Assembly (NCBI GenBank): GCA_050950145.1
Contig: JBMNHB010000001.1
Span: 53,136-117,135, forward strand
Reading direction: 5' to 3'
Source: Candidatus Dojkabacteria bacterium
Lineage (GTDB): Bacteria; Patescibacteriota; Dojkabacteria; SC72
Length of the DNA stretch: 64,000 nt
The position numbers and the translations under genes are program-made. Under the pieces are notes generated by a model. The model saw only the letters and a list, made by a program, of their open reading frames with translations. It was not told the origin of the DNA and ran no database searches. Shown here one piece after another: positions 7,997 through 50,724 of the stretch; the stretch's first letter is position 1, and each line of letters starts with the position of its first letter.

Positions 7997-8023
7997 TTAG
8001 CAAATAACTTAATCATCTGCTAA
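7997..8023 (+). promoter_or_regulatory. Reduced CIRCE-like HrcA operator (TTAGCA-N15-TGCTAA) abutting the hrcA start
   Basis: ttagca at 7997-8002, 15-nt spacer, tgctaa at 8018-8023; upstream TTGACA-N17-TATACT promoter-like element. Confidence 0.55.
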
Positions 8024-8024
8024 C

Positions 8025-8750
8025 ATGGATTTAACAGAGAGACAAAGAGAAATACTTACTGCAATTATAGAAGAGTTCATGCAGGAGGCAGATGAGGTAG
8101 GTTCATTATCGCTCGTTGAAAAATATGACTTAGGTGTTAGTTCTGCAACGATTAGGAATGAAATGGTTAAACTAATGGATTTGGGACTTTTGGAAAAAAG
8201 TCATATATCTTCCGGAAGATTACCAACAGATCAGGCATTAAGATTGTATGTGACAAAAATTCTTGAAAGAAGGCAGTTAAGTCCATTAGTTAGTGTTGAA
8301 ATTAGACAGGGAATATATAGAGATAGGTTTGATAAGGATGTTGTAATTAAATCAGTTTTAGAGATCTTATCCAAAGAAACAGAGAGTCTAGTTTTTTTGG
8401 TGTTAGATGATCAGATTAGATATTTTGGAATTACACAACTCTTTAAATATTCCGAATTTAAGAATGTTGAGAAGTTAAAAACAATATTTAGTATTTTAGA
8501 AGATGATATATATTTAAGGGATATGGTAAAGAAATATTCAAGTTCAGGAGTTTCATTATTAATTGGTGGAGAATCTGGGATAAAGGAGTTAACTGATTGT
8601 GCAATTGCATTTACAAAGATTCCATTTTGGGATGAAAATCAGGCATATGTCGGGATTTTAGGATCTAAGAGAATGGATTACTCTATTGTAATACCAGCAT
8701 TAAATGAAGTGAGGAATGCGTTAAGTGCTTCAATGTCAGGATGGAGATAA
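8025..8750 (+). CDS. hrcA: Heat-inducible transcription repressor HrcA (short form)
   Basis: N-terminal wHTH (LTERQREILTAIIEEF...) and HrcA-like body; precedes grpE-dnaK. Confidence 0.85.
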   Translation: MDLTERQREILTAIIEEFMQEADEVGSLSLVEKYDLGVSSATIRNEMVKLMDLGLLEKSHISSGRLPTDQALRLYVTKILERRQLSPLVSVEIRQGIYRDRFDKDVVIKSVLEILSKETESLVFLVLDDQIRYFGITQLFKYSEFKNVEKLKTIFSILEDDIYLRDMVKKYSSSGVSLLIGGESGIKELTDCAIAFTKIPFWDENQAYVGILGSKRMDYSIVIPALNEVRNALSASMSGWR

Positions 8751-8766
8751 ATTCAGATAGTTAGTT

Positions 8767-9291
8767 ATGAAAAAAGATAAAAATACAAAACAGGATACAA
8801 ATGTGCAAGATTTTCAGAAGAAGATACAGGAATTGGCACTTACGATAGATAAGGTAGAGGATGAGAAGTTGGTTGTTGAAAATCAATTAAAGAAGGCTTT
8901 AGCAGATTATCATAATTTACAGTCAAGTATGGAGAAGAGGCAGGCTCTAAGTATCTTTAATATGAAGAAAAGATTCTGTGAAGAGTTCTTACCAAGTATG
9001 GATGCCATGGTTTTAAGTATTGAGAGTGAAAAGACATTACAACTAGATGATAAAGAGAAGGCATGGTTTGAAGGTGTAGTTGCAATCTTTGAATCTATGA
9101 AGAAATCTTTAGAAGGTATAGGTTTAAAAATATATCTTCCTCAAGTGGGAGATATGTTTGATACATCTATACATGAGGCAATTGCTACATCTGAAGGTGG
9201 CAAAACAGGTGAGATTACTGCAGTAGTTCAACCTGGATACACACTAGATGATACTGTAATTCGTCCTTCCAAAGTATTGGTATCTAAATAA
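8767..9291 (+). CDS. grpE: Nucleotide exchange factor GrpE
   Basis: GrpE coiled-coil plus C-terminal beta domain; sits between hrcA and dnaK. Confidence 0.85.
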   Translation: MKKDKNTKQDTNVQDFQKKIQELALTIDKVEDEKLVVENQLKKALADYHNLQSSMEKRQALSIFNMKKRFCEEFLPSMDAMVLSIESEKTLQLDDKEKAWFEGVVAIFESMKKSLEGIGLKIYLPQVGDMFDTSIHEAIATSEGGKTGEITAVVQPGYTLDDTVIRPSKVLVSK

Positions 9292-9318
9292 TTGAATTAA
9301 ATTTTTACAATAAAATAT

Positions 9319-11229
9319 ATGTCAAAAATAATAGGTATAGACTTAGGAACTACAAACTCTGCCATGTCTTTCATGGAGGGTGGTAAGCCAAATATAATTG
9401 CAAACTCACAGGGAAGTAGACTTACTCCTTCTGTAGTTGCAGAGGATGAAAAAGGTGAGATTCTTGTTGGTACTCCAGCTAAGAATCAAGCAGTTGTTAA
9501 TCCAGAGGGTACTATCTACTCTGTAAAGAGATTGATTGGTAGGAGTTGGGATGATCCTGAAGTTAAGAAAGATGCGAAACTATTACCATTTGAAATGAGG
9601 AAAGCATCTAATGGTGGTGTTGAAGTTAAAATGGGAGATAAATGGTACACACCACAAGAGATCTCTGCAAAAGTCTTAGCAAAGATGAAGAAAGATGCAG
9701 AGGAATTCTTAGGTCAAGATGTTAAAGAAGCTGTAATTACAGTCCCAGCATATTTTGATGACTCTCAAAGACAGGCAACAAAGGATGCAGGTAAGATTGC
9801 AGGTTTGGATGTTAAAAGAATTGTTAATGAGCCAACAGCAGCAGCTTTAGCATATGGATTGGATGATAAAAAGGATCAGAAAGTTGCAGTATTTGACTTA
9901 GGTGGTGGTACATTTGATATCTCTATCCTTGAAATGGGTGATGGAGTTTTTGAAGTTCTTTCAACAAATGGTGATACACACTTAGGTGGTGATGACTTTG
10001 ACCAAGAAATCATTGATTACCTTGCAAAAGAATTTGAGAAGAAAGAAGGTATGGATCTTAGAGAAGACAAGACTGCACTTCAGAGATTGAAAGAGGCTGC
10101 AGAGAAAGCAAAGATTGAACTTTCTACATCAGAAGAAACTGAAGTTAATGTTCCTTACATTACAGCAACAGATAAAGGACCAAAGCATTTGAAAGAAAAA
10201 TTAACTAGATCTGAATTAGAGAAATTAACAAATGATTTAATTGAGAAGACAGTTAAACCATGTGAGAAGGCTCTAAAAGATGCAGGATTAGATAAGAAAG
10301 ATATTGATGAGGTGTTACTTGTAGGTGGTATGACAAGAATGCCAGCTGTTGTTAAGAAGGTAAAAGAAATCTTTGGTAAAGAACCAGATAAAGGTGTAAA
10401 TCCTGATGAGGTTGTAGCACAAGGTGCAGCAATTCAAGCAGGAGTTCTAGGTGGTGATGTAAAAGATATTACACTCTTAGATGTAACACCATTATCTCTT
10501 GGTTTAGAGACATTAGGTGGAGTATTTACCAAATTAATTGAGAGAAATACTACAATTCCTGTTGAGAAGAAACAGATTTTCTCTACAGCTGCTGATAACC
10601 AGCCAGGTGTTGAGATTCATGTTCTTCAGGGAGAGAGAGAGATGGCTGCAGATAACAAGACATTGGGTAGATTCTTACTTGATGGTATCCTACCAGCACC
10701 AAGAGGAGTTCCTCAGATTGAAGTTACATTCTCTATAGATGCTAATGGAATCTTAAATGTTAAAGCTTTAGATCTTGGAACAAAGAAAGAACAGAAGATT
10801 ACAATTACAGCATCTACTGGACTAAAGGAAGAAGAAATTGAAAAGATGGTTGAGGAAGCAGAGAAGAATGCAGAAGAGGATAAAAAGAAGAAAGAGAGAG
10901 CGGAGAAGAGGAATAATGCAGATACATTAGCATTTAATGCAGAGAAAATGATAGATGAGAACAAGGATAAGATTTCTGAAGATGAACAGAAGAGTATTAA
11001 GGAGAAAGCAGAAGAACTAAAAGAGATAATTAAGAAAGAAGATTTTGATTTAGATGAGGTAGAAAAGAAATCTGAAGAATTAGAGAAGGAGATGTTAGAA
11101 GTAGGTAAGAAGGTATATGAGGCAGCTGCAAAAGAATCTGAAGCTAAAGAAGAGAAAAAAGATGATGAGAAACCATCAGAAGAAAAGAAGGATGAAGAAG
11201 CTAAGGAGGGTGAGGTAGTAGAAGAGTAA
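9319..11229 (+). CDS. dnaK: Chaperone DnaK (Hsp70)
   Basis: [18 protein letters not shown] and other Hsp70 signatures; acidic/KE-rich C-terminus. Confidence 0.97.
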
Positions 11230-11258
11230 TATCTTTCAAATAGATTCTTCAAGGGAGG

Positions 11259-12002
11259 TTAAATGCCTCCCTTTTCTTTTCTACTGTTGTCATCTTTATT
11301 TGATTGTGTGTAATATGCTCTTCCTCTAAACAAACATACTGCTTTTACTGAGATATTGTTATCTACTTTCTTAATAACTTCAGATATCTGTTCTAATGTA
11401 CTACCAGTTGTAATAACATCATCTACAATTATTATATCCTTAATATCTTTTAATTTATCAGTATCATCTATGTAAAAGTTACTTCTATGTTTCTCTCTTT
11501 CCTCCTTATCCAATAATGACTGATGGATATCATCTCCCCCTTTTTTCTTTACAATACTATTATCAAACATACTCCCCAGAGTATCAGAAACAACCTTAGC
11601 TAGCTCTTCTGTTTGATTAAATCCTCTCTCTCTTAATCTACTGGTAGATATTGGAACAGGGATTGTAAGAGAATTTTTGTTTTTTTTGTTGAGTACAAAC
11701 TCTTCTAATCTCTCTTTAGCAAATTCAAGTAATGTGTTCTCTGCATCATAGACACTCCCATATTTATACTTTTTCAATATTACAGAACTTAGCTCGTTAT
11801 ATTCCCAAAGAACAATTACACTATCTAATGTAAACTTCTCTTTACATCTCTCATGGGTGATATATTGTGGTGATATTCTTCTACATTTATAACATTCAGG
11901 TAGTGTCTTCTTAAAAAGTTTCTTACACCTAGAACACAAATATTCACCATTCTTAGAACAGATAGTACAAGATTTTGGAAACAGTATATCTAATATATTC
12001 AT
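11259..12002 (-). CDS. comFC: ComF-family phosphoribosyltransferase-like competence protein
   Basis: N-terminal Cys4 zinc-finger (CTICSK...CSRCKK), C-terminal PRTase motif IIVDDVITTGSTL; start taken at MNILDIL, not the longer track ORF. Confidence 0.7.
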   Translation of the reverse strand: MNILDILFPKSCTICSKNGEYLCSRCKKLFKKTLPECYKCRRISPQYITHERCKEKFTLDSVIVLWEYNELSSVILKKYKYGSVYDAENTLLEFAKERLEEFVLNKKNKNSLTIPVPISTSRLRERGFNQTEELAKVVSDTLGSMFDNSIVKKKGGDDIHQSLLDKEEREKHRSNFYIDDTDKLKDIKDIIIVDDVITTGSTLEQISEVIKKVDNNISVKAVCLFRGRAYYTQSNKDDNSRKEKGGI

Positions 12003-12101
12003 ACATATATTATGTATTAGAAATATTAAATATAGATTAATTGATAAAAATTGCACTATACAATATGATAGTAGTCACGAAATAAGAATATTGATATTTT
12101 T

Positions 12102-13871: not shown

Positions 13872-13874
13872 GGT

Positions 13875-14465
13875 ATGAAGAGATTCTTACTAATCCTTTT
13901 GTTGGTTTTCCTACTGGTTGGTGGATACTTTGTAATGAGATACTCTGCTTGGCATAAGGAATTCTTTTTGAATGAAAATGTTACCTGTACAAGTGATGAA
14001 GAGTTTGTAGTAGAGGAGAAAGAGATAAATATTGGAGATAGAATTAAAAACTTTGTTCTTTCAGACTTGTTTTCTGAATTTGTAACATTTAGTAGGAAAG
14101 AAATATTGTATTTACTTAAAGATAGTATATCAGGTGTCTCAGGTTTGGAAATTCAAGACATTTGTTTAGTTTCAGATAAAGGGGTGTGGAAGGTTTATAC
14201 ACATGGCAAAATAAAAATTCTTCAATTACCCTGGATAGGGGTGGATATAGTGAAGGATAACAGGGAAACTGCAGAGTTGTATTCTAGGAATATCTATGTT
14301 GGTGATATGAAAGTCCCTGAAATTTTAGCGAGAAAGACTTTAGAGAAAATAAACAAGGGAATTAGTGATGCCTTGATATTGGTAACAGAGAATGGGTTCT
14401 TAGGGAAAACAATAGAGAATATTGATTTATTAAAGGATAGTATTGTGATAAAAGGTGGGTTCTAG
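13875..14465 (+). CDS. Hypothetical membrane-anchored protein
   Basis: N-terminal TM helix; no recognisable domain. Confidence 0.3.
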   Translation: MKRFLLILLLVFLLVGGYFVMRYSAWHKEFFLNENVTCTSDEEFVVEEKEINIGDRIKNFVLSDLFSEFVTFSRKEILYLLKDSISGVSGLEIQDICLVSDKGVWKVYTHGKIKILQLPWIGVDIVKDNRETAELYSRNIYVGDMKVPEILARKTLEKINKGISDALILVTENGFLGKTIENIDLLKDSIVIKGGF

Positions 14466-14496
14466 GCTTGAATTTTTCTTTCAAATTGTGTTACAA

Positions 14497-14523
14497 TTAG
14501 CAATCACTAATTTTATCTGCTAG
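14497..14523 (+). promoter_or_regulatory. Reduced CIRCE-like operator (TTAGCA-N15-TGCTAG) upstream of groES
   Basis: ttagca at 14497-14502, 15-nt spacer, tgctag at 14518-14523; 6 nt before the groES ATG. Confidence 0.5.
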
Positions 14524-14529: not shown

Positions 14530-14829
14530 ATGTCAAAAGATATAAAAATCACGCCCCTAGGAAATAGAGTACTGGTAACACCAGACAAGATTGATGAGAA
14601 AACATCAGGAGGATTAGTTCTTCCACCTTCATCAACAGAAGATCAGAAACCTGAAACAGGTACAATTGCTAAATTAGGTGTAGGTAAGGTCAAAGGTAAG
14701 GATGTTTCCTTTGATGTTAGCGTAGGAGATAGAGTATATTTCAAAAAATATTCACCAGATGAATTAGAAGTAGATGGAGAGAAATATCTTCTTCTTGAAG
14801 CTAGTGATATTTTAGCAGTTATCAAATAA
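14530..14829 (+). CDS. groES: Co-chaperonin GroES
   Basis: 99 aa Cpn10 (ITPLGNRVLV...). Confidence 0.95.
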   Translation: MSKDIKITPLGNRVLVTPDKIDEKTSGGLVLPPSSTEDQKPETGTIAKLGVGKVKGKDVSFDVSVGDRVYFKKYSPDELEVDGEKYLLLEASDILAVIK

Positions 14830-14838
14830 TTGAATTAA

Positions 14839-16479
<1,641 letters not shown>

Positions 16480-26164: not shown

Positions 26165-27349
26165 ATGGAATATCCCATGAGTAACAAACTGCCTACCTCT
26201 GGAGTTGATGAAAGTATAGATGAAGTTCTTGCATTAGAGAACAAACTTCTATCTTCGTCTGCTCCTCATGACTTAAAGGAAGAATCTAAGCTCTCTATAG
26301 ATAGGCTCAAAAGGATGATTCGTATGGGTGGGTATAGTAGTGAATTTGAAACTGTAAGTAAGTATATAGATTGGATTGTAAGAGTACCTTGGAACTCATT
26401 TTCTGAAGATGTTTTAGATATTGTAAGTGCAAAAAAAATCATGGATAGTACACATTATGGTATGGAATCTATTAAAAACCTCATCCTTGATTATTTAGCA
26501 TCTATGCAATTGAAAAAAGAAAATTATCAAAAGAGAGATGTTATTCCTACCCAGTTTCAAGTAGGAGTAGAAGAAAATATTCAGAATAGACCAGTTGTTA
26601 AAGTTGAGAAACAGAAAATCTATACACCAGTATTTCTTTTTGTTGGTTTGCAAGGTGTAGGTAAAACATCTATAGCGAGGTCTATTGCACAATCAATGAA
26701 TAGGAAGTTTGCAAGAATCTCTCTTGGTGCTATTGGTGATGTAAGAACTTTAAGGGGAACCCCAAGGTATTCAATTGATGGTGAACCAGGACAGATAGTA
26801 AAATCTCTGATTAGATGTGGTACTATGAACCCTGTTATTCTTTTGGACGAAATTGAGAAATCTAGTGCTAATACAGGTCTTCTTAATGATGTGATGGCAA
26901 CCCTTTTGGAGATTTTAGACCCAGAGCAAAATACATCTTTCATAGATCATTATATTGATTATCCAATTGATTTATCTAATGTAATGTTTATTTGTACCGC
27001 AAATAATTTAGGAGGGCTTTCTGCTGCTTTGTTAGATAGGGTAGAAGTAATTAGGTTTACCAGTTATTCAGATGAGGAGAAGAAAGTAATTGCGAAGCAG
27101 TATATTCTTCCTGAGGTATTAGAAGAATATAATTTAACATCAAATGAAATTCAAATTTCTGATGATATATGGTTATCAGTTATCAGACCTGTAGGTTTTG
27201 ATGCTGGTATTAGACAGTTAGAAAGAAATATTGCAACCATGATAAGGAGTGCAGCGAGAAAAATTGTAGAAGGTAGTCCAACTCCGATAAGTATCAATAA
27301 TGAGAATCTTTCAGAATTTCTTACTGTTGATCAAGGTCCTCTTAGTTAG
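26165..27349 (+). CDS. Lon-type AAA+ ATPase module without LON N-domain or S16 protease domain
   Basis: Collinear with the Lon AAA+ region: YIDWIVRVPWN, HYGMESIKNLILDYLA, GLQGVGKTS (Walker A; Lon has GPPGVGKTS), ILLDEIEK (Walker B), FICTANN, LLDRVEVIRFTSYSDEEK. ORF stops ~30 aa after the AAA+ lid. Confidence 0.8.
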   Translation: MEYPMSNKLPTSGVDESIDEVLALENKLLSSSAPHDLKEESKLSIDRLKRMIRMGGYSSEFETVSKYIDWIVRVPWNSFSEDVLDIVSAKKIMDSTHYGMESIKNLILDYLASMQLKKENYQKRDVIPTQFQVGVEENIQNRPVVKVEKQKIYTPVFLFVGLQGVGKTSIARSIAQSMNRKFARISLGAIGDVRTLRGTPRYSIDGEPGQIVKSLIRCGTMNPVILLDEIEKSSANTGLLNDVMATLLEILDPEQNTSFIDHYIDYPIDLSNVMFICTANNLGGLSAALLDRVEVIRFTSYSDEEKKVIAKQYILPEVLEEYNLTSNEIQISDDIWLSVIRPVGFDAGIRQLERNIATMIRSAARKIVEGSPTPISINNENLSEFLTVDQGPLS

Positions 27350-27354: not shown

Positions 27355-27621
27355 TTATACACCTTTAAAAGGATTTTTTAGTTGTAATGCAGATATAGCT
27401 CTTGATATTTGTGGGTTTTTTACTGATTTTGCTATATTAGATCTGTAATTACTTTTCTCTTCTGCTTTAAGTAATTGTTCTAAATCCGAACTTTTGGCTT
27501 CTTCTGTTAATGATTTTGTATCAACAGCTTGTGTTACAAGATATAGTTCTTCTTGTATTTTTTCAGGTTCTTTTTTAGTTGTTTTTTTATTAAAGAAACT
27601 AAACATTTTTATCTTCTTCAT
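27355..27621 (-). CDS. Small hypothetical protein, last gene of the VirB4 operon
   Basis: 88-aa ORF overlapping the virB4 3' end by 23 nt. Confidence 0.25.
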   Translation of the reverse strand: MKKIKMFSFFNKKTTKKEPEKIQEELYLVTQAVDTKSLTEEAKSSDLEQLLKAEEKSNYRSNIAKSVKNPQISRAISALQLKNPFKGV

Positions 27622-30010
27622 TAGGGTAACTTTCTGTATAGCCCTGTGGTGTTAAATGTTTCTTACCTTTTTGTATATCTTTCCTAGAACTCACAACTTG
27701 TCCTGTTAGGGTCTTTTGACTCAACTCATCTATGAATGTCTTTTGACTTTTATATTTATCTGGATTTATCACCTTTTCTTGTTCAACTAACCTTTTTTCT
27801 AACTCTTCTTGATATTTTATTCTTTCATCCAAGAGCATCTCTCTCTGTTTTTCTTTAGCCTCTATAGCTTCCATGATAATTTCGCTTTCTCTTGTACTAC
27901 TATCTCGTATAGGTTGTTGTACTGCTGGAGGATCATATATTTGAGCTAATTCTTGAACTGTTCTTGTGTCTGTTATACCTTCTTTTTCTTTGAGTCTTTC
28001 TAAATCTTTAGGGTCAGATGTAATAATTTCATGCTCAGCAACACTTGATAATACTTGAATACCAACATGGTTTTGTCCTGCAAAAAATAATCCTTGTCCT
28101 TTATCACAGTTTAATAGGTAATTTCTTTCTCCATCTGATAAGTTGAAAACTTTTTGTAGTAGTTCAACAGCAGAAGGGCTTTGTTTCATTAGCATTTGTA
28201 TTGAAGAGTTAGAGATAATTGCTTTTCCCATTTCATTTCCTAAGAAATCTGCAACATCTTGTGTAATTGTTGATAACCCTAGATAATATTTTCTAGCTCT
28301 TTTAGCAATAGTGTACATAAATTTAGCTGAATCCTCCGATTGCATCATATACCAAGCTTCATCAACAATTAATAATCTTCTTTTTCTATCTTTTCTAATT
28401 CTTGTCCAGATAAAGTCCAACATTAGGTACATAGCTAGTGGTTTTAGTTCATCCTGTAAATCTCTGATACTGAATACTGTGAATGGATTATTAATCTCAA
28501 AGTTACTTGCTTCATTAAATACTCCTGCACCACTTCCTATAATGTATTTTTCAAGCCTTCTTGCTAAACCATGTGCTTCTGTTTCAGCCATACCTTTAAG
28601 GACTTTGTATAAATCTTCAAGTAAAGGAGGTGTTTTGGTCTGAGTTTTAACATCAAATGTTATACCTTTTTCTTTGTATGTCAGAGATAAAGCTCTATCT
28701 AATATAGAATCTTCAATATTTGTTATTCCTTCAAATAGTACTTTGAAAAACCCATGAAGTGATAATAGTTTCATTCTTAACTCATCATCTCCTTCTTCTG
28801 TTACTCCTGAAAGTTCAAAAGGATTCATTTTGTGTCCCTTATCTTGTGAGAAAGAGATATAAGCTCCATTAACAGCTTTTGCTAAATTCTCATACTCTCT
28901 TTCTGGGTCAATTATGATAATCTCGGTTCCTAGCATTAAACTTCTAATAGCTTCAAGTTTAACGAAGTAACTTTTTCCTGCACCAGATTTTGCAAATATT
29001 ACTGCATTTGCATTTTCTAATTCAAACCTATCAAATACAATCAAACTCTTGTTGTGCATATTTAATCCATACATAATCCCATGATCCATTGTTAATTCCG
29101 AAGTAACAAATGGAAAAGTAGTAGCTAATGAAGTAGTATCCATATTTCTAGTTATGAAGAGGTTGTCTATTCCTAATGGTTGTGTACTTATGAATGCTTG
29201 TTCTTGTTGTAAGGTTGCAGGTTTAGCTGTTACATTCATTGCTGCAAATGTAGATATGACATTTCTTGATATCTTTTCCAATTCTTCTTTGTTGTTAGCA
29301 TAGAGGGTTACATACATGGAGAAATGGAAGAATTTCTCTGTTCCTTCTGCAATAGAGTCTTGTAACATTTGTGCGTCTGAGAGAGCAACTTTAAGTGATG
29401 GATCTATGACTTTTCTATCCTCCATCTGAGTGTAGAGTGTAGCTTCCATCTCACCTATCTTCTTTTTTAATTTTTCTAGAATGGTTTTAGAATCTACTGG
29501 ATAGTAGAATGTACTAATTCTTAATGAGTGCTCAAAGTTGATAATAGGAGATAACCAGTTAGGTCCTACGAATCTGGGATACCCACTTACGAATAGTGTT
29601 CTAAAGTAATATCCTCCCATCTGCAAATGAGTGAAATCAATTTCCATATCAATAGGGGCGAGTAAGTCCTGCATTGACATCTTTGTATCAACACCAATAC
29701 TACTATCAATACTTTGTACTTCTTCTTTAGGTACTTCTTGTACCTTATCTTCTTCTTTCTTTTCCTTACTTTTTTTGTTTTTTCCAGTGATTATGTCTAA
29801 TAGCTGAAATATAGGGTTAACCTTTTTCTTCTTCTCTTCATTTGTGTCTACAAACTCCTCTATTGGAACAAATGGTTTATCCATCTTATCACTAGGTTCT
29901 ACCTTTATCTGTTCTTTAAAGGTAGTATACTTCTCCTGTGCTGTTTGTAGCTTTTTTTGTCTTTCCATCATCATATTGCTAGTTTTACTTGTAATATTGT
30001 TGTTTTCCAT
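27599..30010 (-). CDS. virB4: Type IV secretion/conjugation ATPase, VirB4/TrbE/CagE family (Gram-positive TcpF/PrgJ-like)
   Basis: YFRTLFVSGYPRFV...WL pattern; Walker A AKSGAGKSY; NPF; Walker B LLIVDEAWYMM; RKYYLGLSTITQDVADF. K/E-rich ~110 aa N-terminal linker and ~130 aa coiled-coil C-terminal extension. Confidence 0.85.
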   Translation of the reverse strand: MENNNITSKTSNMMMERQKKLQTAQEKYTTFKEQIKVEPSDKMDKPFVPIEEFVDTNEEKKKKVNPIFQLLDIITGKNKKSKEKKEEDKVQEVPKEEVQSIDSSIGVDTKMSMQDLLAPIDMEIDFTHLQMGGYYFRTLFVSGYPRFVGPNWLSPIINFEHSLRISTFYYPVDSKTILEKLKKKIGEMEATLYTQMEDRKVIDPSLKVALSDAQMLQDSIAEGTEKFFHFSMYVTLYANNKEELEKISRNVISTFAAMNVTAKPATLQQEQAFISTQPLGIDNLFITRNMDTTSLATTFPFVTSELTMDHGIMYGLNMHNKSLIVFDRFELENANAVIFAKSGAGKSYFVKLEAIRSLMLGTEIIIIDPEREYENLAKAVNGAYISFSQDKGHKMNPFELSGVTEEGDDELRMKLLSLHGFFKVLFEGITNIEDSILDRALSLTYKEKGITFDVKTQTKTPPLLEDLYKVLKGMAETEAHGLARRLEKYIIGSGAGVFNEASNFEINNPFTVFSIRDLQDELKPLAMYLMLDFIWTRIRKDRKRRLLIVDEAWYMMQSEDSAKFMYTIAKRARKYYLGLSTITQDVADFLGNEMGKAIISNSSIQMLMKQSPSAVELLQKVFNLSDGERNYLLNCDKGQGLFFAGQNHVGIQVLSSVAEHEIITSDPKDLERLKEKEGITDTRTVQELAQIYDPPAVQQPIRDSSTRESEIIMEAIEAKEKQREMLLDERIKYQEELEKRLVEQEKVINPDKYKSQKTFIDELSQKTLTGQVVSSRKDIQKGKKHLTPQGYTESYPNEEDKNV

Positions 30011-30645
30011 TAATCTTCTTCAGGGTTATATGATGTATACAGTTCTGTTATTAACTCTTTTGTAGTTAATTGATGTCCGAAAAGTCCCATCCTTCCTAGT
30101 TGTTTTATTATATGATCCCTTTTAGGGTATAGGAATATTTTAGCTTTTTCTATTAATTGGTCCATTTTTATATTCCTATTTTGTTCTTCCTCTTCTTTGC
30201 TTTTCTTCTTTTTCAATATGGATGTTTCCGGTATTATAGATCCAGTATGATAGGGAACTATGATAAAAAAACTTTTATCTAGAACATCATTCTGTACGAT
30301 TAAATTTTTCACAAATGTTATGTATATGTTTAATTGTTTTTTTAATCCCTCACTCATAGCTTGTTGTTCTTGTGATTGTAGATAGGTAATGTAGTTGGTA
30401 ATATCTATCCTTTTTGTTCTAATCATTATCTGGATACGAAAATTCAAGGAATTCAGTAATCCTGCAAAAGCAAGTATCTTATTATCTTGTTCATACTCTG
30501 CAAGTAAATCAAAATTAATAGCAGATGTTTGTATTACCATCGCAACACTTCCATTTTTATTTATCACCAAGTCATCACGAATATCTCGTACCGCTAGATG
30601 ATCTTGTGTTGATGCTGTTGCTCTTGCTCTTGCATTTCTATCCAT
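30010..30645 (-). CDS. VirB4 N-terminal domain encoded as a separate, translationally coupled ORF
   Basis: IRDDLVINKNGSVAMVIQTSAINFDLLAEYEQDNKILAFAGLLNSL...RIQI matches the conserved N-terminal domain of Gram-positive VirB4 ATPases; stop/start overlap TAATG with virB4. Confidence 0.55.
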   Translation of the reverse strand: MDRNARARATASTQDHLAVRDIRDDLVINKNGSVAMVIQTSAINFDLLAEYEQDNKILAFAGLLNSLNFRIQIMIRTKRIDITNYITYLQSQEQQAMSEGLKKQLNIYITFVKNLIVQNDVLDKSFFIIVPYHTGSIIPETSILKKKKSKEEEEQNRNIKMDQLIEKAKIFLYPKRDHIIKQLGRMGLFGHQLTTKELITELYTSYNPEED

Positions 30646-30646
30646 T

Positions 30647-31477
30647 TTAAAGTGTAGTTATCTTAATAGGTAAGTTCTTTTCATTTCCACTTAATAATAT
30701 ATCTACCTTAGGGAACATGTATTGATTATTATCAAATTCAATAGAATATTTTCCTGGTTTCCATTTCTGATTTGTTAAAAAGTATCCATTACTCCCCGTT
30801 TTATTAGCATACAAAAGATTCCCATTTTCATCTTTTAATAGAGTTACAATATTAGGAATTGGTTTGAAGTCTTTTGTACTAATCCAAATATTAATATTTC
30901 CAGGTAGATTGTCAAAACCTTTGGCATTAAATTGATATTGAGAAATATTCTCTTCATTTATTAAAATATATTCAGGATTTACACTCTTAGGAGCAGAACT
31001 CTCAAGACTTTCTAATTCCTCATCTATTTTCTTTTGTACTTCGGATATGGGTTGTTCTGTCTTTTTATCTGTTAATTGAACTCCAATAATTTTCTTCTTT
31101 TTTTCTTTAGTATCCTTTGCTATTAATTTACCATCTTCAGATGGTTTTAAATGTGGCTTTACTCTGTTTTTTTCATCCTCTTTACTAATCCATGCTCTCT
31201 GTGTAGGACTAGTTATTGCCCTTATATAGTTCTGTATAAATTTGTCAGCAGGTTGGTCATTTATTGGTACAAGAGCTAGGAAGATACCAGCTAAAGATGA
31301 GAGGATGAATACAGGGATACCAATTATAGGTGGAATTGTATTACCAATGGTTAGATAGAGAACTAAGCCACCCAAACCAACACCTAGTGCTAAATATGCA
31401 AATTCTTTGAGAGTGAACTTAGTAAAAAGTTTAAACTCTACATCTAATACATTTTGAGGTATTGCATGTTGTTTCAT
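30647..31477 (-). CDS. VirB3-like two-TM membrane protein with C-terminal beta-rich extracytoplasmic domain
   Basis: Two adjacent N-terminal TM helices (LALGVGLGGLVLYLTIG / IIGIPVFILSSLAGIFLALVP) immediately upstream of the virB4 ORFs. Confidence 0.4.
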   Translation of the reverse strand: MKQHAIPQNVLDVEFKLFTKFTLKEFAYLALGVGLGGLVLYLTIGNTIPPIIGIPVFILSSLAGIFLALVPINDQPADKFIQNYIRAITSPTQRAWISKEDEKNRVKPHLKPSEDGKLIAKDTKEKKKKIIGVQLTDKKTEQPISEVQKKIDEELESLESSAPKSVNPEYILINEENISQYQFNAKGFDNLPGNINIWISTKDFKPIPNIVTLLKDENGNLLYANKTGSNGYFLTNQKWKPGKYSIEFDNNQYMFPKVDILLSGNEKNLPIKITTL

Positions 31478-46277: not shown

Positions 46278-46298
46278 AATGGGTAATTATACCAAGTT

Positions 46299-48437
46299 CT
46301 AGTTTGTTTCACTATCAGAGGATGTTTGTTCTTTTATCTGATCTGCTATTGATTGGAATATGGATGGATCTGGAGCTTCTGGTTCTTCTATTACTGTTTG
46401 ATCATGGTTTTGGGTTTCTGTGGTTCCAAATGCGACACCTTCTTCTGTTTTGACTTCTTCAATGACTGGTTGTTCTGTTCGTACTGTTGTTTCTTCTTTT
46501 ACTTTAACTTCAGGCTTGGATGCTTCTGGTTCAAATTTAATATCTTCTTTTTCTTCTTCTTGTTTTATGATTGGTTCTTCAACTTTAATAACAGGTTCTT
46601 CTACTTTTACTTCTCTCTCAATTTTAATTTCTGGTTTTACCTCTACATCTTCTTTAATAACATCAATTGTTGGTGCTGCATATGTCTCAATTTCTTTTTC
46701 TTTACTTACTACTGGTGTTGTATCAACCTTATCTTTTATATTTATATCCACATTAGGTGGAATATATGTCTGATTCTCATACTCTGTTGAATATGGAATA
46801 TTTCTATTAGTGTATGTAGAAACAACATCTTTACTTTTTCCTTTTCCCCATATGAGTGATATGAGTAGTGGAATACAGATTGCTAGTATTATTATGAAAA
46901 GCCCCATTCCAATTATTAGTAATGTCCTCTTACTTATCTCTTTACCAAAGATGGTATATACCTCTGAATAATCATCTGCACTTTCATTAATTGTAAATTC
47001 CCAAGATTTACTACTCTCTTTATTATTTGTATCAGAAAAAGTTATCTCTGCTTTATGAACTCCATCTTTTAAATCTTTTGTTGGTTGGTATATCAGGGTA
47101 TATTCTCGGTCTGTTATCTTGTTTATCTTTACATCCTCAGTAACATTCTCATCATTAACTTTAAATACGATTGAAGTTTCATTTATTTTTGCACCCTCAC
47201 TTGCAATAATGGTACCTTTGATAGTTACTCTCCTGTTTGAAATCTCTTCTGAAGAGGTAGGGGACATATTTGTAATTTGTGGTTCTGGAAGTATTATCTC
47301 ATCATCTGTCACAGGATCTCTATCTGATAATCTTGATATAACTATTTCAGGGGAGATACCAACACCTGATTTTGGTTGATCTTGGTTATCTGTTGCTTTA
47401 ACAACCAGTTTATATGTTCCAGAAGAGAGTCCTTCTGTTGGTACAGTTGTTTTTACGACATTATATGCTAAATCAGCACCAATTTTTTTCCATGTACTTT
47501 CATCTGATGGATTCTTTGCCATAAATAATTGGAATCTTTCAATATGATTTAAGTCTGAAACAGTCCAAGAAGCATCAAAATTTTTACCTGCATCTATCCT
47601 AATTGGTTGAAGAGGGTCTATTATTTTAACAATTGGAATATCATTCTCACTTGGACTAACACTTATCACCCAAGATTGAGTCCTCACATGCATACTATAC
47701 CCATCATGTATTACTACATGTGCTAAGTAACTTGCTGCTTTATCAGTTGTACCCCTAAATACCACTGTTAATCTTCCACTAGAACCATCTTCTACAATAA
47801 CTGCTTTTAGCCAATCTGCTCTTGGAGTGAATGAGTAGAAGTAGTTAATTCTATCTTTATCTTCATCCTCTGCAGTCAGAGTATATTCGTATTGTATTCC
47901 CGTTTTAATATCTTGTCCTGGTTTAGAAGATTTTGGTTGGGATGTGAATTCTGGAGAGGAGTTGTTAACAATTGCTCTAATTCCTCTAATATCGTAAGGA
48001 CTACTAATTTTACAAGCAGCACTAGAATCTCCAGTTAAATCTATAGAACCGAGAATATCTATAGTTCCTGATTTCTCAGGAGTATAGATGAAGCTAGTTC
48101 CAATTTGTAATGGGGCATTAGGAAAATCTTCTTTATATATTTCTTTTCCACTAGGATCCATTATATTGAGTTTCCTAATTCCCGAACTTGTAAGTTTTGC
48201 GTCTACTTGTATCCTAATACTTTTTCCTACTTCCAGAGAGTAAGGGTTTACATTTGGCAAGGAAATGATACATGGATTTTGGTCACTGAGTTCTATCCTA
48301 TCAAACGCTTTGCTCCTAGTATCAAGAGTCCTTTCTAGAAGAGTGTAAGCTACTAAAGGAAGAGCAAGAAAGAAAAGTAAACTTACGATGAGGAGAAGAC
48401 TTTTTTTAGATTTTTTTGTACTGTATCTCTTAGGCAT
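46299..48437 (-). CDS. Large surface protein with Ig-like repeats, TM helix and E/K/V-rich repetitive tail
   Basis: Signal/TM at N-terminus, He_PIG-like segments, TM (LLIIGMGLFIIILAICIPLL), KVEEPVIKVEEPIIK repeats. Confidence 0.45.
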   Translation of the reverse strand: MPKRYSTKKSKKSLLLIVSLLFFLALPLVAYTLLERTLDTRSKAFDRIELSDQNPCIISLPNVNPYSLEVGKSIRIQVDAKLTSSGIRKLNIMDPSGKEIYKEDFPNAPLQIGTSFIYTPEKSGTIDILGSIDLTGDSSAACKISSPYDIRGIRAIVNNSSPEFTSQPKSSKPGQDIKTGIQYEYTLTAEDEDKDRINYFYSFTPRADWLKAVIVEDGSSGRLTVVFRGTTDKAASYLAHVVIHDGYSMHVRTQSWVISVSPSENDIPIVKIIDPLQPIRIDAGKNFDASWTVSDLNHIERFQLFMAKNPSDESTWKKIGADLAYNVVKTTVPTEGLSSGTYKLVVKATDNQDQPKSGVGISPEIVISRLSDRDPVTDDEIILPEPQITNMSPTSSEEISNRRVTIKGTIIASEGAKINETSIVFKVNDENVTEDVKINKITDREYTLIYQPTKDLKDGVHKAEITFSDTNNKESSKSWEFTINESADDYSEVYTIFGKEISKRTLLIIGMGLFIIILAICIPLLISLIWGKGKSKDVVSTYTNRNIPYSTEYENQTYIPPNVDINIKDKVDTTPVVSKEKEIETYAAPTIDVIKEDVEVKPEIKIEREVKVEEPVIKVEEPIIKQEEEKEDIKFEPEASKPEVKVKEETTVRTEQPVIEEVKTEEGVAFGTTETQNHDQTVIEEPEAPDPSIFQSIADQIKEQTSSDSETN

Positions 48438-48454
48438 TATTTATATAATACTGT

Positions 48455-49831
48455 TTATTGGTTTGTTTGTGCAAGTCTATTATTTATTGTATTCTCAGTT
48501 TCTCTTAATACTGAATTTACATCTTTTCCACTTTCTACTATTCTAGTGATTGCTTCTTCTATTGAAGATCTAACAAAACTCTCATCACCTAATTGCCAAG
48601 ACCGCATATATGGAGCCATTTTCGCTATTGCATCAACATATGCTTTTCCTTTCATCTCTTCATTCAATTCTACAAGAGAATATGGTTCTCCAAATGCTCT
48701 ATCTCCAGTTGTTGAAGAACTAGAGTATAGTTTTAATTGTTGTTCTTTCTCTGCTAAGAATTTTACGAACCTCCATGCTAATTCTGTGTTTGGAGACTTC
48801 TTGTTTACAGCTTCTGCCCAATATGTTGAGTAATATATCTGATTCTTGTTTGCTTGAAGCTGTGGTAATGGGGAAGTACCAAATTCTATTGATGAAGATG
48901 ATTGTATGATATCAAAAGCTTTCCAACTTGGTGCGATCATCATTGCCAATTTCCCAGAGTAGAACATATTAAGATCATTGTTAAGAGAAGGAGACCAGAC
49001 AGCGTTATTTCCTGTGGCAAAATCAACATATGTTTGAAAAACTCCTGCAGTTTTAGAATTATTTAATGATATTTTTGTCCTAGTGCTATCCATTAAATCA
49101 ACCCCCTCTTGTAGAAGTAAGAAGAGAATAATTTCAGATGAATGTTGAATATTTCTTGCACTTCCCAGGGCTAGTCCTGATTGAATAATCCTTCCACTTG
49201 AATCTTTCTTTGTTAGTTTTCTTGCTAAGGATATAAAGGAATCCCAATCCTCTGGAGGAGTCTGGACATTTTGTTCTGCCAACAATTGTTTGTTATAAAA
49301 GACCATAAGTCCATCTATTTCTATTGGAACTGCATATATAGATACTCCATCTTTACCTGTAAAATCAGAAAGTGCTGTTGGATAGAATTTTTGAGAATAT
49401 TCATCTCTTGTCATTACACTTGTAGGCATAGTTGAAAGTAGTGATGCATATTTGGGTAACCATGTGTTATGTATTCTAAAAACGTCTGGTGCTGGTTCAG
49501 ATGTTGTTGCCCCTTGTTGAAGTCTGGTATGTAGTCTGGATTCATATTGTGTAAACGGTTGTTTTGAATACTTGATTGTAGTTCCTGGGTTTTTTTGCTC
49601 AAATTCTTCTATCAATGGTCTCATTACTTCGGGAGCTTCCCATAGTCCCCAGTATACAATTTCTCCAGATACTCTGGTTTGGGTTGTTCCACCTCCACTT
49701 GGGGATACAGTAGTTTTTTTCTTACCAAAAAATAATATGAGGAAAGCAATCAGAATTACTAGAATGAGAACTACTGCTGCAATTATAAGGGGTAGTTTCT
49801 TTTTATCTTGAAGTGTGTTTTGTATATCCAT
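48455..49831 (-). CDS. ABC transporter extracellular solute-binding protein (family 1), membrane-anchored
   Basis: N-terminal TM; SBP_bac_1-like pattern (IVYWGLWEAPEV...). Confidence 0.65.
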   Translation of the reverse strand: MDIQNTLQDKKKLPLIIAAVVLILVILIAFLILFFGKKKTTVSPSGGGTTQTRVSGEIVYWGLWEAPEVMRPLIEEFEQKNPGTTIKYSKQPFTQYESRLHTRLQQGATTSEPAPDVFRIHNTWLPKYASLLSTMPTSVMTRDEYSQKFYPTALSDFTGKDGVSIYAVPIEIDGLMVFYNKQLLAEQNVQTPPEDWDSFISLARKLTKKDSSGRIIQSGLALGSARNIQHSSEIILFLLLQEGVDLMDSTRTKISLNNSKTAGVFQTYVDFATGNNAVWSPSLNNDLNMFYSGKLAMMIAPSWKAFDIIQSSSSIEFGTSPLPQLQANKNQIYYSTYWAEAVNKKSPNTELAWRFVKFLAEKEQQLKLYSSSSTTGDRAFGEPYSLVELNEEMKGKAYVDAIAKMAPYMRSWQLGDESFVRSSIEEAITRIVESGKDVNSVLRETENTINNRLAQTNQ

Positions 49832-49851
49832 ATCTTTGATTAAGTATAAAA

Positions 49852-50643
49852 TTAATTTCTTCTTTCAGCTGTAACAATTAGTCTTTGTGTACCAATACCT
49901 AGAGGCCAACATGTCATTAATGTAACATTTTCTTTATCCCTTATCGGTTGTAATACAGTAAAATCATCTGGATCTACAATTTTCTTACTTCTAACAACAT
50001 ATTTTAATATTGTTCCCTCTTTCTCTATCTCTACCTCTTGTCCAATATCTACACCATCTAATCTTGAAAATATTGTTTCTGGATAATCTTGATGTCTTCT
50101 GAAAAAGGATTCTACTGCACTGTGACCGTATATGAAAGAATTACCACCATCTCCAGGAACAGGTGTTCCTTTGAAATGTGCAACGCCATTTTTTAGGAAT
50201 TTGTTGTATACATTCTCGTTAACACTTTCAACATTAGGAGTTATTTTTATCCTTTTTATCCCAATACTATTAATTGTGATATACATATCCCTGTTGTATG
50301 TAGTATCTACTTTGATAGGTTTTTGAGTTTTTGTTGTAGAATTGTAAGTTGTTGATGCTCCAAGAATCCCTAGTTTTTCAGAAAGATTTGCGAAGTAGCT
50401 AATCCCTGGATCGTAGTAGGCAAATTCATCTTCAATATATTTTTTGTATGATTCTGGTACTGGTTCTACCTTCATATCTACTCTTTTTTGAGCAATAACT
50501 CCATCAATGTATGAAGCTGTAAGTGGAATTACTTGGCTTGCAATAATTCCTACTCCAATAAAAGCTAGAACAACAGAGACTATCTTTCTAGTTCTCCTCA
50601 CTTTATTCTCATCTTCTGTATTAATATTCCAACTACTTTGCAT
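49852..50643 (-). CDS. Sortase family transpeptidase
   Basis: N-terminal TM; His motif FIYGHSA; TLxTC motif VTLMTCWP; conserved Arg in RLIVTAERR. Confidence 0.75.
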   Translation of the reverse strand: MQSSWNINTEDENKVRRTRKIVSVVLAFIGVGIIASQVIPLTASYIDGVIAQKRVDMKVEPVPESYKKYIEDEFAYYDPGISYFANLSEKLGILGASTTYNSTTKTQKPIKVDTTYNRDMYITINSIGIKRIKITPNVESVNENVYNKFLKNGVAHFKGTPVPGDGGNSFIYGHSAVESFFRRHQDYPETIFSRLDGVDIGQEVEIEKEGTILKYVVRSKKIVDPDDFTVLQPIRDKENVTLMTCWPLGIGTQRLIVTAERRN

Positions 50644-50697
50644 AGAAATATATTAGCAGATTTAGAGTAATTGAGAAACATTATAGTTTTAGAAAGA

Positions 50698-50724
50698 CTA
50701 GCAATTGAAATATTAGTCTGCTAA
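50698..50724 (+). promoter_or_regulatory. Reduced CIRCE-like operator (CTAGCA-N15-TGCTAA) upstream of dnaJ
   Basis: ctagca at 50698-50703, 15-nt spacer, tgctaa at 50719-50724; 11 nt before the dnaJ ATG. Confidence 0.5.

What the first reader, a model, noticed from the sequence alone, without database searches (positions are those of the whole stretch)
7997..50724. HrcA regulon uses a reduced CIRCE operator (TTAGCA-N15-TGCTAA) at all three chaperone operons
Directly upstream of hrcA (7997-8023), groES (14497-14523) and dnaJ (50698-50724) there is a hexamer inverted repeat (T/C)TAGCA-N15-TGCTA(A/G), each ending 1-11 nt before the start codon. Canonical CIRCE is TTAGCACTC-N9-GAGTGCTAA, whose outer hexamers are also spaced by 15 nt; here the inner CTC/GAG triplets are not conserved. 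Together with the unusually short HrcA (241 aa), this suggests a minimal HrcA-operator pair that also covers the separated dnaJ.
Basis: partly seen in the sequence, partly recalled or inferred. Interest (0 to 1): 0.5.

Follow-up and report, generated by a model that had tools for sequence, protein, structure and literature searches.

The report
Degenerate CIRCE heat-shock operators in Dojkabacteria
Three chaperone promoters in this candidate-phylum bacterium carry a trimmed version of the classic HrcA heat-shock operator; the sites are real and conserved, but the same trimmed motif has already been described in another phylum.

Summary
YTAGCA-N15-TGCTAR occurs exactly three times in the 64 kb window (0.04 expected), directly upstream of hrcA-grpE-dnaK, groES-groEL and dnaJ. 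The genome is a Candidatus Dojkabacteria (WS6, CPR). In 872,771 bp of related Dojkabacteria loci the motif occurs 111 times (about 1.2 expected), always at hrcA, groES or grpE starts. All 10 distinct dnaJ promoters examined also carry it. Sister CPR lineages have near-canonical CIRCE at the same promoters, so this is an eroded CIRCE whose only palindromic part is the outer hexamers.

- The 241-aa HrcA is not paired with the reduced operator. HrcAs of 225-258 aa lacking about 105 internal residues occur in all the other CPR lineages sampled, most with near-canonical CIRCE upstream.
- A fourth, weaker site (7962-7988) overlaps the hrcA -35 box.
- The sites sit differently at each promoter. At hrcA and groES they start at the -10 box and cover the start site. 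At dnaJ the site spans -35 to an extended -10 of a probably leaderless gene.
- TAGCA-N15-TGCTAA was already derived by ChIP-seq and EMSA for Waddlia HrcA (de Barsy 2016).

Verdict: a new member of a known kind, of modest interest. HrcA binding itself is inferred, not shown.

The parts
7962..7988 (+). O1: weak upstream operator-like repeat ATAGCA-N15-TGCTTA overlapping the hrcA -35 box
   Evidence: Found with 2 mismatches. It has the same register as canonical CIRCE over TTGACA in outgroup CPR (L004, L158-L160). The TCTGCT of its right arm is invariant in close relatives while the neighbouring spacer bases vary. It has at most 1 mismatch per arm in 11 of 42 scored hrcA promoters and is absent from other subclades.
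7969..7997 (+). hrcA promoter: -35 TTGACA (7969-7974), 17-nt spacer, -10 TATACT (7992-7997)
   Evidence: Matches 11 of 12 consensus positions. TTGACN, a 17-nt spacer and TATACT are conserved across most of the 51 distinct orthologous promoters.
7997..8023 (+). O2: main hrcA operator TTAGCAAAT-N9-ATCTGCTAA. It shares its first T with the -10 box and ends 1 nt before the ATG.
   Evidence: All 51 distinct orthologous promoters carry it with 0-1 mismatch in the 10 core positions. It ends 1 nt (39 promoters) or 2 nt (12 promoters) before the start codon.
8025..8750 (+). hrcA, 241 aa: winged-helix domain plus GAF-like domain, lacking about 105 internal residues
   Evidence: PF03444 and PF01628 match. 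TIGR00331 scores 182.6 bits, below its 197.2 cutoff. Compared with 1STZ by sequence and fold. The gap is visible in alignment A4.
8767..11229 (+). grpE (8767-9291) and dnaK (9319-11229), downstream in the hrcA operon
   Evidence: No operator of their own in this genome. A deep subclade has one in front of grpE.
14468..14497 (+). groES promoter: -35 TTGAAT, 18-nt spacer, extended -10 TGtTACAAT
   Evidence: TGnTACAAT is conserved in orthologues.
14497..14523 (+). groES operator TTAGCAATC-N9-ATCTGCTAG. It shares its first T with the -10 box and ends 6 nt before the ATG.
   Evidence: All 27 distinct orthologous groES upstream regions carry it with 0-1 core mismatch, and the spacer is unusually conserved.
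14530..16479 (+). groES (14530-14829) and groEL (14857-16479)
50698..50724 (+). dnaJ operator CTAGCAATT-N9-GTCTGCTAA. Its left arm sits at the -35 position and its right arm overlaps the extended -10.
   Evidence: All 10 distinct orthologous dnaJ upstream regions (DnaJ identity 61-94%) carry it with 0-1 core mismatch.
50719..50727 (+). Probable dnaJ extended -10 TGcTAAAAT, 8 nt before the ATG (leaderless-type promoter)
   Evidence: TGCTA(A/G)A(A/C)T followed by 7-8 nt and then ATG is conserved in all dnaJ orthologues. The same geometry occurs at 16 of 54 genes in the window against 2.4 expected.
50736..51821 (+). dnaJ, 361 aa, separated from the dnaK operon
   Evidence: The sortase/dnaJ/nusA neighbourhood is conserved in relatives.

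Best explanation
These are DNA operators for the genome's own HrcA repressor. They are a lineage-specific, eroded form of CIRCE in Candidatus Dojkabacteria, in which only TTAGCA(R)...(Y)TGCTAA, 27 bp overall, is kept. By analogy with characterised HrcA systems, a folded HrcA dimer would bind the two arms and exclude or trap RNA polymerase, and protein-folding stress would titrate GroEL, inactivate HrcA and derepress the chaperone genes. At hrcA and groES the operator begins at the last base of the -10 hexamer and covers the predicted start site and nearly the whole short leader, which has no Shine-Dalgarno sequence. hrcA has an extra weak site over its -35 box. At dnaJ the operator spans the core promoter of a probably leaderless gene, with the left arm at -35 and the right arm inside the extended -10. 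Shown here: motif position, specificity, conservation and continuity with canonical CIRCE. Inferred: HrcA binding, repression, the GroEL feedback and the transcription start sites.
For: There are exactly 3 hits in 64 kb against 0.04 expected. In 872,771 bp of Dojkabacteria loci there are 111 hits against about 1.2 expected, all at hrcA, groES or grpE starts. The 10 core positions carry 0-1 mismatch in 51-52 hrcA, 27 groES and 10 dnaJ distinct orthologous upstream regions, spanning HrcA identity down to 47%. Outgroup CPR with homologous HrcA have near-canonical CIRCE at the same promoters. One Dojkabacteria subclade still has a canonical right arm, GAGTGCTAA, which shows gradual erosion. The cognate hrcA is present with its winged-helix domain and a conserved SSATIRNEM helix. 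The arms are invariant or change on one side only, with no compensatory changes. The inner triplets are mostly unpaired. That pattern fits a protein site rather than an RNA helix. The reduced motif binds HrcA in Waddlia by ChIP-seq and EMSA (PMC4989314). HrcA footprints over the start site in Campylobacter (PMC7464140).
Against: No binding or expression data exist for any CPR HrcA. The HrcA here lacks the inserted domain which, from my memory of the 1STZ paper (Liu et al. 2005), mediates dimerisation, so how it binds an inverted repeat is unknown. The dnaJ arms coincide with promoter elements and could be conserved partly for that reason. The whole genome could not be scanned, so the regulon is defined only for the window and the related loci. 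One divergent Dojkabacteria locus (L005) shows only a half-site.
Confidence: 0.85

Rival explanations
1. The repeat acts at the RNA level, as a 5'-UTR hairpin that controls mRNA stability or translation of the chaperone transcripts, rather than as a DNA operator.
For: CIRCE has been reported (own knowledge) to affect mRNA stability in B. subtilis. The elements lie between the promoter and the start codon at hrcA and groES. The dnaJ sequence of this genome folds to -8.2 kcal/mol with a z-score of -2.65.
Against: The conserved -10 hexamers abut the left arm, so the predicted start sites fall inside the element and the left arm would not be transcribed at hrcA or groES. At dnaJ the whole element lies upstream of the likely start site. 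The hrcA and groES hairpins are weak, at -3.4 and -3.8 kcal/mol with z-scores of -0.8 and -0.6. Across 70 distinct sites the six outer pairs show no compensatory changes, and covariation is below the shuffled expectation. The dnaJ spacer that gives the extra stem is not conserved.
Confidence: 0.04
2. At dnaJ the 'operator' is simply the core promoter, a -35-like TAGCAA/TTGGCA plus an extended -10 TGCTAAAAT, and is not HrcA-controlled. Only hrcA and groES would then be true HrcA targets.
For: TGCTAAAAT followed by 7-8 nt and then ATG matches the leaderless-type promoter geometry common in this genome. The neighbouring sortase gene has TCTGCTAATAT-N6-ATG with no left arm, which shows that TGCTAA can arise as part of an extended -10.
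Against: The left arm TAGCA lies exactly 15 nt from TGCTA in all 10 distinct dnaJ orthologues, with 0-1 core mismatch. TAGCAA matches only 3 of 6 positions of TTGACA, so it is a poor -35 box, yet it is more conserved than the -35 boxes of other genes. The full 27-bp pattern occurs nowhere else in 873 kb or in the window, although extended -10 promoters are abundant there. Operators that overlap core promoter elements are normal for CIRCE in other CPR.
Confidence: 0.08
3. A regulator other than HrcA binds the motif, and the truncated HrcA is inactive or has a different role.
For: HrcA here lacks about 105 residues and falls below the TIGR00331 cutoff. NCBI annotates it as a hypothetical protein.
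Against: The winged-helix domain and its recognition helix are conserved. The protein is 67-100% conserved across the clade at a constant length of 241 aa, which indicates purifying selection. The motif grades into canonical CIRCE in sister lineages that have the same short HrcA. Its position at hrcA's own promoter fits the usual autoregulation. No other candidate regulator is linked to these loci.
Confidence: 0.03

Closest known systems
Canonical CIRCE / HrcA system (Bacillus subtilis type, TTAGCACTC-N9-GAGTGCTAA; Zuber & Schumann 1994, as cited in PMC7464140)
   Same: A 27-bp inverted repeat with identical outer hexamers TTAGCA/TGCTAA. It sits at the groESL and hrcA-grpE-dnaK promoters next to or over the start site. 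hrcA is the first gene of the dnaK operon and so is autoregulated.
   Different: The inner CTC/GAG triplets are lost as a palindrome (0-2 of 3 kept per arm). Position 7 is a purine instead of C. dnaJ has been moved out of the operon and has its own operator. HrcA lacks about 105 internal residues. The leaders have no Shine-Dalgarno sequence.
Reduced CIRCE of Chlamydiae: TAGCA-(N)15-TGCTAA, derived by HrcA ChIP-seq and EMSA in Waddlia chondrophila (de Barsy et al. 2016, PMC4989314) and applied to C. trachomatis (PMC8762339)
   Same: Essentially the same consensus: the same conserved outer arm sequences (TAGCA and TGCTAA) spaced by 15 nt, at the hrcA and groES promoters. This shows that HrcA can recognise the outer arms alone.
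   Different: A different phylum (CPR versus PVC). The HrcA domain architecture may also differ, but the length of the Waddlia HrcA was not examined here. No binding experiments exist for the present case. The larger regulon reported in Waddlia and Chlamydia was not seen in the sequence available here.
Campylobacter jejuni / Helicobacter pylori HrcA with CIRCE-like operators (PMC7464140; NCBIfam PRK03911, a 264-position model for short HrcA)
   Same: A shorter-than-usual HrcA family member. A single compact, imperfect CIRCE-like repeat is footprinted over the core promoter and start site of groESL and hrcA.
   Different: Those systems are co-regulated with HspR/HAIR. No HspR or HAIR was looked for or seen here. 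The window HrcA scores only 66.9 bits against PRK03911 (cutoff 248), so it is not that subfamily.
Thermotoga maritima HrcA crystal structure 1STZ
   Same: Best sequence and fold match. The N-terminal winged helix (query 3-85 against chain 15-97) and the C-terminal GAF-like part (query 135-197 against chain 235-292) align.
   Different: Chain residues of roughly 100-234 have no counterpart. From my memory of Liu et al. 2005 this region is the inserted dimerising domain, which I did not verify in the library. The next-best fold matches are two-domain IclR-type regulators.

Membership tests
CIRCE operator (HrcA regulon) | Inverted repeat with outer arms TTAGCA and TGCTAA, 27 bp overall (15 nt between the hexamers) | tested here: met
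   Three exact matches to YTAGCA-N15-TGCTAR. Columns 2, 5, 6, 22, 23, 24 and 26 are invariant across 70 distinct orthologous sites.
CIRCE operator (HrcA regulon) | Full 9-bp arms, including the inner CTC/GAG triplets | tested here: not met
   No match to TTAGCACTC-N9-GAGTGCTAA with up to 3 mismatches. Inner pairs 7-21, 8-20 and 9-19 are unpaired in 38, 51 and 33 of 70 sites. The groES left arm keeps 8 of 9 positions.
CIRCE operator (HrcA regulon) | Located at or next to the promoters of groESL and the hrcA/dnaK operon | tested here: met
   The operators abut the -10 hexamers of the hrcA and groES promoters. The dnaJ site lies over its core promoter.
CIRCE operator (HrcA regulon) | Cognate hrcA gene present in the same genome | tested here: met
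   hrcA at 8025-8750 matches PF03444 and PF01628.
CIRCE operator (HrcA regulon) | Conserved in orthologous promoters and rare elsewhere | tested here: met
   111 hits in 872,771 bp against about 1.2 expected, all at chaperone gene starts. All 10 distinct dnaJ orthologue promoters carry the site.
CIRCE operator (HrcA regulon) | Bound by HrcA, with heat- or stress-inducible derepression | not testable with these tools
   No cultured representative and no expression data. Supported only by analogy with Waddlia EMSA on the same reduced motif.
HrcA repressor family (TIGR00331 / PF01628 + PF03444) | N-terminal winged-helix DNA-binding domain with the SSATIRNEM recognition helix | tested here: met
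   PF03444 E = 3e-5 over residues 2-72. The motif is invariant in alignments A3 and A4.
HrcA repressor family (TIGR00331 / PF01628 + PF03444) | HrcA C-terminal (GAF-like) domain | tested here: met
   PF01628 E = 1.8e-18, but only profile positions 73-215 are matched. 1STZ is the best fold hit.
HrcA repressor family (TIGR00331 / PF01628 + PF03444) | Full-length equivalog score and presence of the inserted (dimerising) domain | tested here: not met
   TIGR00331 scores 182.6 bits, below the 197.2 cutoff, in two stretches. There is a clean gap of about 106 columns against Bacillus and Clostridium HrcA. The same gap is seen in all CPR HrcAs examined.

The most novel reading that the evidence does not exclude
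CPR bacteria as a group use a minimal two-domain HrcA (winged helix plus GAF-like domain, without the inserted dimerising domain) that still recognises CIRCE. In Dojkabacteria its specificity has relaxed to the outer hexamers. The operator has also been built into an unusual expression regime: in a genome with no Shine-Dalgarno signal and many leaderless genes, it serves as the entire leader of hrcA or as the core promoter of dnaJ. If so, the inserted domain is dispensable for operator recognition, and HrcA must dimerise and sense GroEL in some other way.
Probability: 0.45. Interest if true: 0.45.

Novelty: new member of a known kind. Interest (0 to 1): 0.3.

Why it matters
It gives a clean, comparatively validated example of a transcription-factor regulon in Candidate Phyla Radiation bacteria, where almost nothing is known about gene regulation. 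It also traces how a classic operator erodes from 9+9 to about 6+6 bp within one class while keeping very high specificity. In practice the motif can be used to annotate heat-shock regulons and promoters in Dojkabacteria MAGs, and to correct the 'hypothetical protein' annotations of their HrcA. The by-products are probably more interesting than the operator. One is a deletion of HrcA's inserted domain in every CPR HrcA examined. The other is a genome that appears to use neither Shine-Dalgarno sequences nor long leaders. Neither changes the current understanding of HrcA/CIRCE, and the reduced consensus itself is already published for Chlamydiae.

Tried and rejected
Only two close Dojkabacteria loci came back. 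I rescued this by scanning metagenome contigs with an alignment of the C-terminal half only.
- My first automatic start-codon assignment chose downstream ATGs in about a third of hrcA loci. It was corrected, where the true GTG or ATG lies 1-2 nt after the operator.
- The RNA-hairpin idea was tested and rejected.
- The chance explanation was rejected.
- The link between short HrcA and the reduced operator was tested and rejected.
- Rfam and tRNA scans of the window found nothing.
- Literature searches for CIRCE or HrcA in CPR, Patescibacteria or Dojkabacteria, and for leaderless or Shine-Dalgarno usage in CPR, found nothing relevant.
- Searches for a citable description of the 1STZ domains failed, so the naming of the inserted domain rests on my own recollection.
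- The AlphaFold model is of only moderate quality (pLDDT 72; residues 58-101 below 50). I used it only to confirm the overall fold match.
- The whole genome of this organism could not be retrieved, so the regulon outside the window is unknown.
Full report
**1. The observation**

- 7997-8023, TTAGCAAATAACTTAATCATCTGCTAA
- 14497-14523, TTAGCAATCACTAATTTTATCTGCTAG
- 50698-50724, CTAGCAATTGAAATATTAGTCTGCTAA

They are the only matches to YTAGCA-N15-TGCTAR in the 64 kb window. Shuffles give 0.04 expected, and none of 100 shuffles reached 3.

The sites end 1, 6 and 11 nt before the start codons of three genes:
- hrcA (8025-8750), which is followed by grpE (8767-9291) and dnaK (9319-11229)
- groES (14530-14829), which is followed by groEL (14857-16479)
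- dnaJ (50736-51821)

No canonical 9+9 CIRCE exists in the window even with three mismatches allowed.

Relaxing the hexamer pattern to two mismatches gives five hits against 4.3 expected. These are the three sites, one probably fortuitous hit in coding sequence at 48755, and a fourth site at 7962-7988 (ATAGCA-cTTGACActtctgtc-TGCTTA) that lies over the hrcA -35 box.

**2. The organism and the repressor**

The HrcA protein is 100% identical to a protein from a Candidatus Dojkabacteria (WS6, Candidate Phyla Radiation) MAG on a 748,838-bp contig. The length of 241 aa is the norm across this clade.

The protein has the HrcA winged-helix domain and the HrcA C-terminal domain. It scores 182.6 bits against TIGR00331, below the 197.2 cutoff, and matches in two stretches. 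This probably explains why NCBI annotates it as a hypothetical protein.

Three comparisons show a clean internal deletion of about 105 residues:
- phmmer against 1STZ aligns query 3-85 with chain 15-97 and query 135-197 with chain 235-292.
- An AlphaFold model (pLDDT 72) has 1STZ as its best fold match, followed by two-domain IclR-type regulators.
- A multiple alignment with Bacillus and Clostridium HrcA shows the gap directly.

From my own recollection of the 1STZ paper (Liu et al. 2005), the missing region is the inserted dimerising domain. I could not confirm this in the paper library.

The same deletion is present in every other CPR HrcA I recovered, including Saccharibacteria and Moranbacteria MAGs. 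Their lengths are 225-258 aa.

**3. Comparative test of the operator**

A metagenome scan with a clade-specific C-terminal HrcA alignment returned 80 loci. About 75 of them are Dojkabacteria loci with the conserved order hrcA-grpE-dnaK ... groES-groEL.

*hrcA promoters.* The 51-52 distinct hrcA upstream regions span HrcA identity from 47% to 100%:
- All carry the 27-bp element with 0-1 mismatch in the ten core positions (TAGCA/TGCTA).
- The element directly abuts a conserved TATACT -10 hexamer, which lies 17 nt downstream of TTGACN.
- It ends 1 nt (39 promoters) or 2 nt (12 promoters) before an ATG, GTG or TTG start.

*groES promoters.* All 27 distinct groES upstream regions carry the element just downstream of a conserved extended -10, TGnTACAAT.

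*dnaJ promoters.* Nine look-ups of DnaJ homologues gave 14 further loci, so that with the window there are ten distinct upstream regions (DnaJ identity 61-94%). All ten have nTAGCAATT-N9-nnYTGCTAA with 0-1 core mismatch, or TTGGCACTC-N9-GTTTGCTAG in one subclade.

*Specificity.* In 872,771 bp of Dojkabacteria loci the symmetric pattern occurs 111 times, against about 1.2 expected from Markov simulations. Every hit is at an hrcA start or a groES start, or, in a deep subclade (L144-L151), in the hrcA-grpE spacer.

**4. What the element is**

Outgroup CPR lineages with the homologous short HrcA have near-canonical CIRCE at the same promoters:
- L010: TTAGCACTC-N9-GAGTGCTAA
- L158-L160: TTAGCACTTGAC...TAGAGTGCTAA
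- L006 and L008: TTAGCAGTC-N9-GAGTGCTAA

Within Dojkabacteria, one subclade (L002, L133-L143) keeps a canonical right arm, GAGTGCTAA, at hrcA. The groES left arm TTAGCAATC keeps 8 of 9 canonical positions.

So the element is CIRCE that has eroded from 9+9 bp to roughly TTAGCAR...YTGCTAA. The window's clade is at the eroded end of this series.

I tested pairing across 70 distinct sites:
- The six outer pairs are invariant or change on one side only.
- The three inner pairs are unpaired in 33-51 of the 70 sites.
- Covariation is below the shuffled expectation.

This pattern fits a protein-binding site rather than an RNA helix.

As RNA, the hrcA and groES elements fold weakly, at -3.4 and -3.8 kcal/mol with z-scores of about -0.7. 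In addition, the promoter geometry predicts that transcription starts inside the element.

**5. Geometry and likely mechanism**

*hrcA.* The promoter is TTGACA (7969-7974), a 17-nt spacer, and TATACT (7992-7997), matching 11 of 12 consensus positions. Operator O2 shares its first T with the -10 hexamer. It therefore covers the predicted start site and essentially the whole leader of about 20 nt.

O1 (7962-7988) overlaps the -35 box in exactly the register used by canonical CIRCE in outgroup CPR. In the window's clade and a few others it is kept with at most 1 mismatch per arm, which is 11 of 42 scored promoters. Elsewhere it has decayed. I rate it a probable auxiliary or relic site, with about 0.5 confidence.

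*groES.* The promoter is TTGAAT, an 18-nt spacer, and TGtTACAAT (14468-14497). The operator starts at the last T of the -10 hexamer.

*dnaJ.* The only conserved promoter-like element is TGCTAAAAT (50719-50727). This is an extended -10 that overlaps the right arm and lies 8 nt before the ATG, or 7-8 nt in all orthologues. The operator therefore spans the -35 to -10 region of what is probably a leaderless gene.

*Genome context.* The window's genes show no Shine-Dalgarno enrichment: 6 of 54 genes have an SD-like motif against 6.7 expected. In contrast, 16 of 54 have a TATAAT-like hexamer matching at least 5 of 6 positions, 5-9 nt before the start codon, against 2.4 expected.

*Inferred mechanism.* By analogy with characterised systems (PMC7464140 for footprints over the start site; the GroEL-titration model is from my own knowledge), HrcA bound to these sites blocks RNA polymerase. 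Unfolded-protein stress would inactivate HrcA and derepress all three units.

Binding, repression, the GroEL feedback and the start sites are all inferred. None of them is shown here.

**6. Rivals**

- An RNA-level role is unlikely (section 4).
- The dnaJ site could be 'only a promoter', and this is the most serious rival. The neighbouring sortase gene shows that TGCTAATAT can be an extended -10 with no left arm. However, the left arm at dnaJ is conserved at exactly 15 nt in all ten distinct upstream regions. It is also a poor -35 box. The full pattern never occurs at the many other extended -10 promoters.
- A different regulator is unlikely, given the continuity with canonical CIRCE and the strong conservation of the winged helix.

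**7. Comparison with what is known, and novelty**

The exact reduced consensus, 5'-TAGCA-(N)15-TGCTAA-3', was derived from HrcA ChIP-seq in Waddlia chondrophila and validated by EMSA (de Barsy et al. 2016, PMC4989314). It was later used to predict targets in Chlamydia trachomatis (PMC8762339).

Imperfect CIRCE-like operators over the start site are also footprinted for Campylobacter HrcA (PMC7464140).

No paper in the library links HrcA or CIRCE with CPR, Patescibacteria or Dojkabacteria.

The finding is therefore a new member of a known kind. It is a well-supported HrcA regulon in a CPR class that uses an already documented reduced operator.

**8. Verdict**

- Confidence that these are HrcA operators is 0.85.
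- Interest is 0.3.

The side observations may deserve more attention than the operator itself. They are an HrcA without the inserted domain in every CPR lineage sampled, a genome without Shine-Dalgarno signals and rich in leaderless-type promoters, and an operator that doubles as the whole leader or as the core promoter.

Noticed in passing
whole window (e.g. gene starts at 2535, 3549, 31744, 50736; minus-strand genes ending at 31477, 33527, 35406, 46277, 61781): No Shine-Dalgarno enrichment: 6 of 54 genes have an SD-like motif against 6.7 expected. In contrast, 16 of 54 genes have a TATAAT hexamer matching at least 5 of 6 positions, 5-9 nt before the start codon, against 2.4 expected. This suggests that leaderless transcripts are common in this Dojkabacteria genome.
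   Followed up: partly
window 8025-8750; L003-L010, L154, L158-L160: All CPR HrcAs examined (225-258 aa) lack about 105 residues present in Bacillus, Clostridium and Thermotoga HrcA. From my memory of the 1STZ paper, the missing part is the inserted dimerising domain. The window protein (the only one scored) falls below the TIGR00331 cutoff, and NCBI annotates it as hypothetical.
   Followed up: partly
window 7962-7988: A second, weaker operator-like repeat, ATAGCA-N15-TGCTTA, lies over the hrcA -35 box in the same register as canonical CIRCE in other CPR. It is kept only in some Dojkabacteria subclades.
   Followed up: yes
L144:2249, L145:10416, L146:808, L148:2668, L149:4591, L150:2219, L151:10403: A deep-branching Dojkabacteria subclade has an additional full operator in the hrcA-grpE spacer. 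This would give grpE-dnaK its own HrcA-controlled promoter.
   Followed up: partly
window 14503-14517 and groES orthologues: The spacer of the groES operator (ATCrTTAAwTTwATC) is much more conserved than the spacers of the hrcA and dnaJ operators, across GroES identity of 54-100%. The reason is unknown. Possibilities are a start-site or leader constraint, or extra HrcA contacts.
   Followed up: no
window 50650-50658 (minus strand, upstream of the sortase gene 49852-50643): A lone TGCTAA half-site forms an extended -10 (TGcTAATAT) 6 nt before the sortase ATG. It is partly conserved in relatives. This shows that the CIRCE right arm and an extended -10 can coincide.
   Followed up: partly
window 7406-7939 (minus strand): The gene divergent from hrcA has no Pfam match. 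It probably starts at the ATG at 7921 rather than the GTG at 7939, because TGATATACT lies 8 nt upstream of that ATG, which is the leaderless-type geometry. This is read from the sequence only.
   Followed up: no
window 6325-7227: A gene for an rve-type integrase with an N-terminal HTH, probably an insertion-sequence transposase, lies about 0.7 kb upstream of the hrcA promoter region.
   Followed up: no
window 27599-31477 (minus strand): A cluster with a TraG/VirB4-like P-loop ATPase (803 aa) and a PrgI-family protein. It looks like part of a type IV secretion or conjugation-like system.
   Followed up: no
window 55057-56481: A RuBisCO large-subunit homologue (474 aa). To my knowledge such homologues are common in CPR genomes. 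Its form was not determined here.
   Followed up: no
window 26165-27349: An AAA+ protein with a Lon lid domain but no Lon protease domain detected (394 aa). It has no HrcA operator upstream.
   Followed up: no
window 1-64000: There are no tRNA or tmRNA genes and no Rfam family at gathering threshold anywhere in the 64 kb.
   Followed up: no
L005:2200-2290: A divergent Dojkabacteria-labelled MAG (HrcA 35% identical) has only a half-site (TTAGCC) upstream of hrcA, and a TATAAT 5 nt before the ATG. This is a possible loss or relocation of the operator.
   Followed up: no
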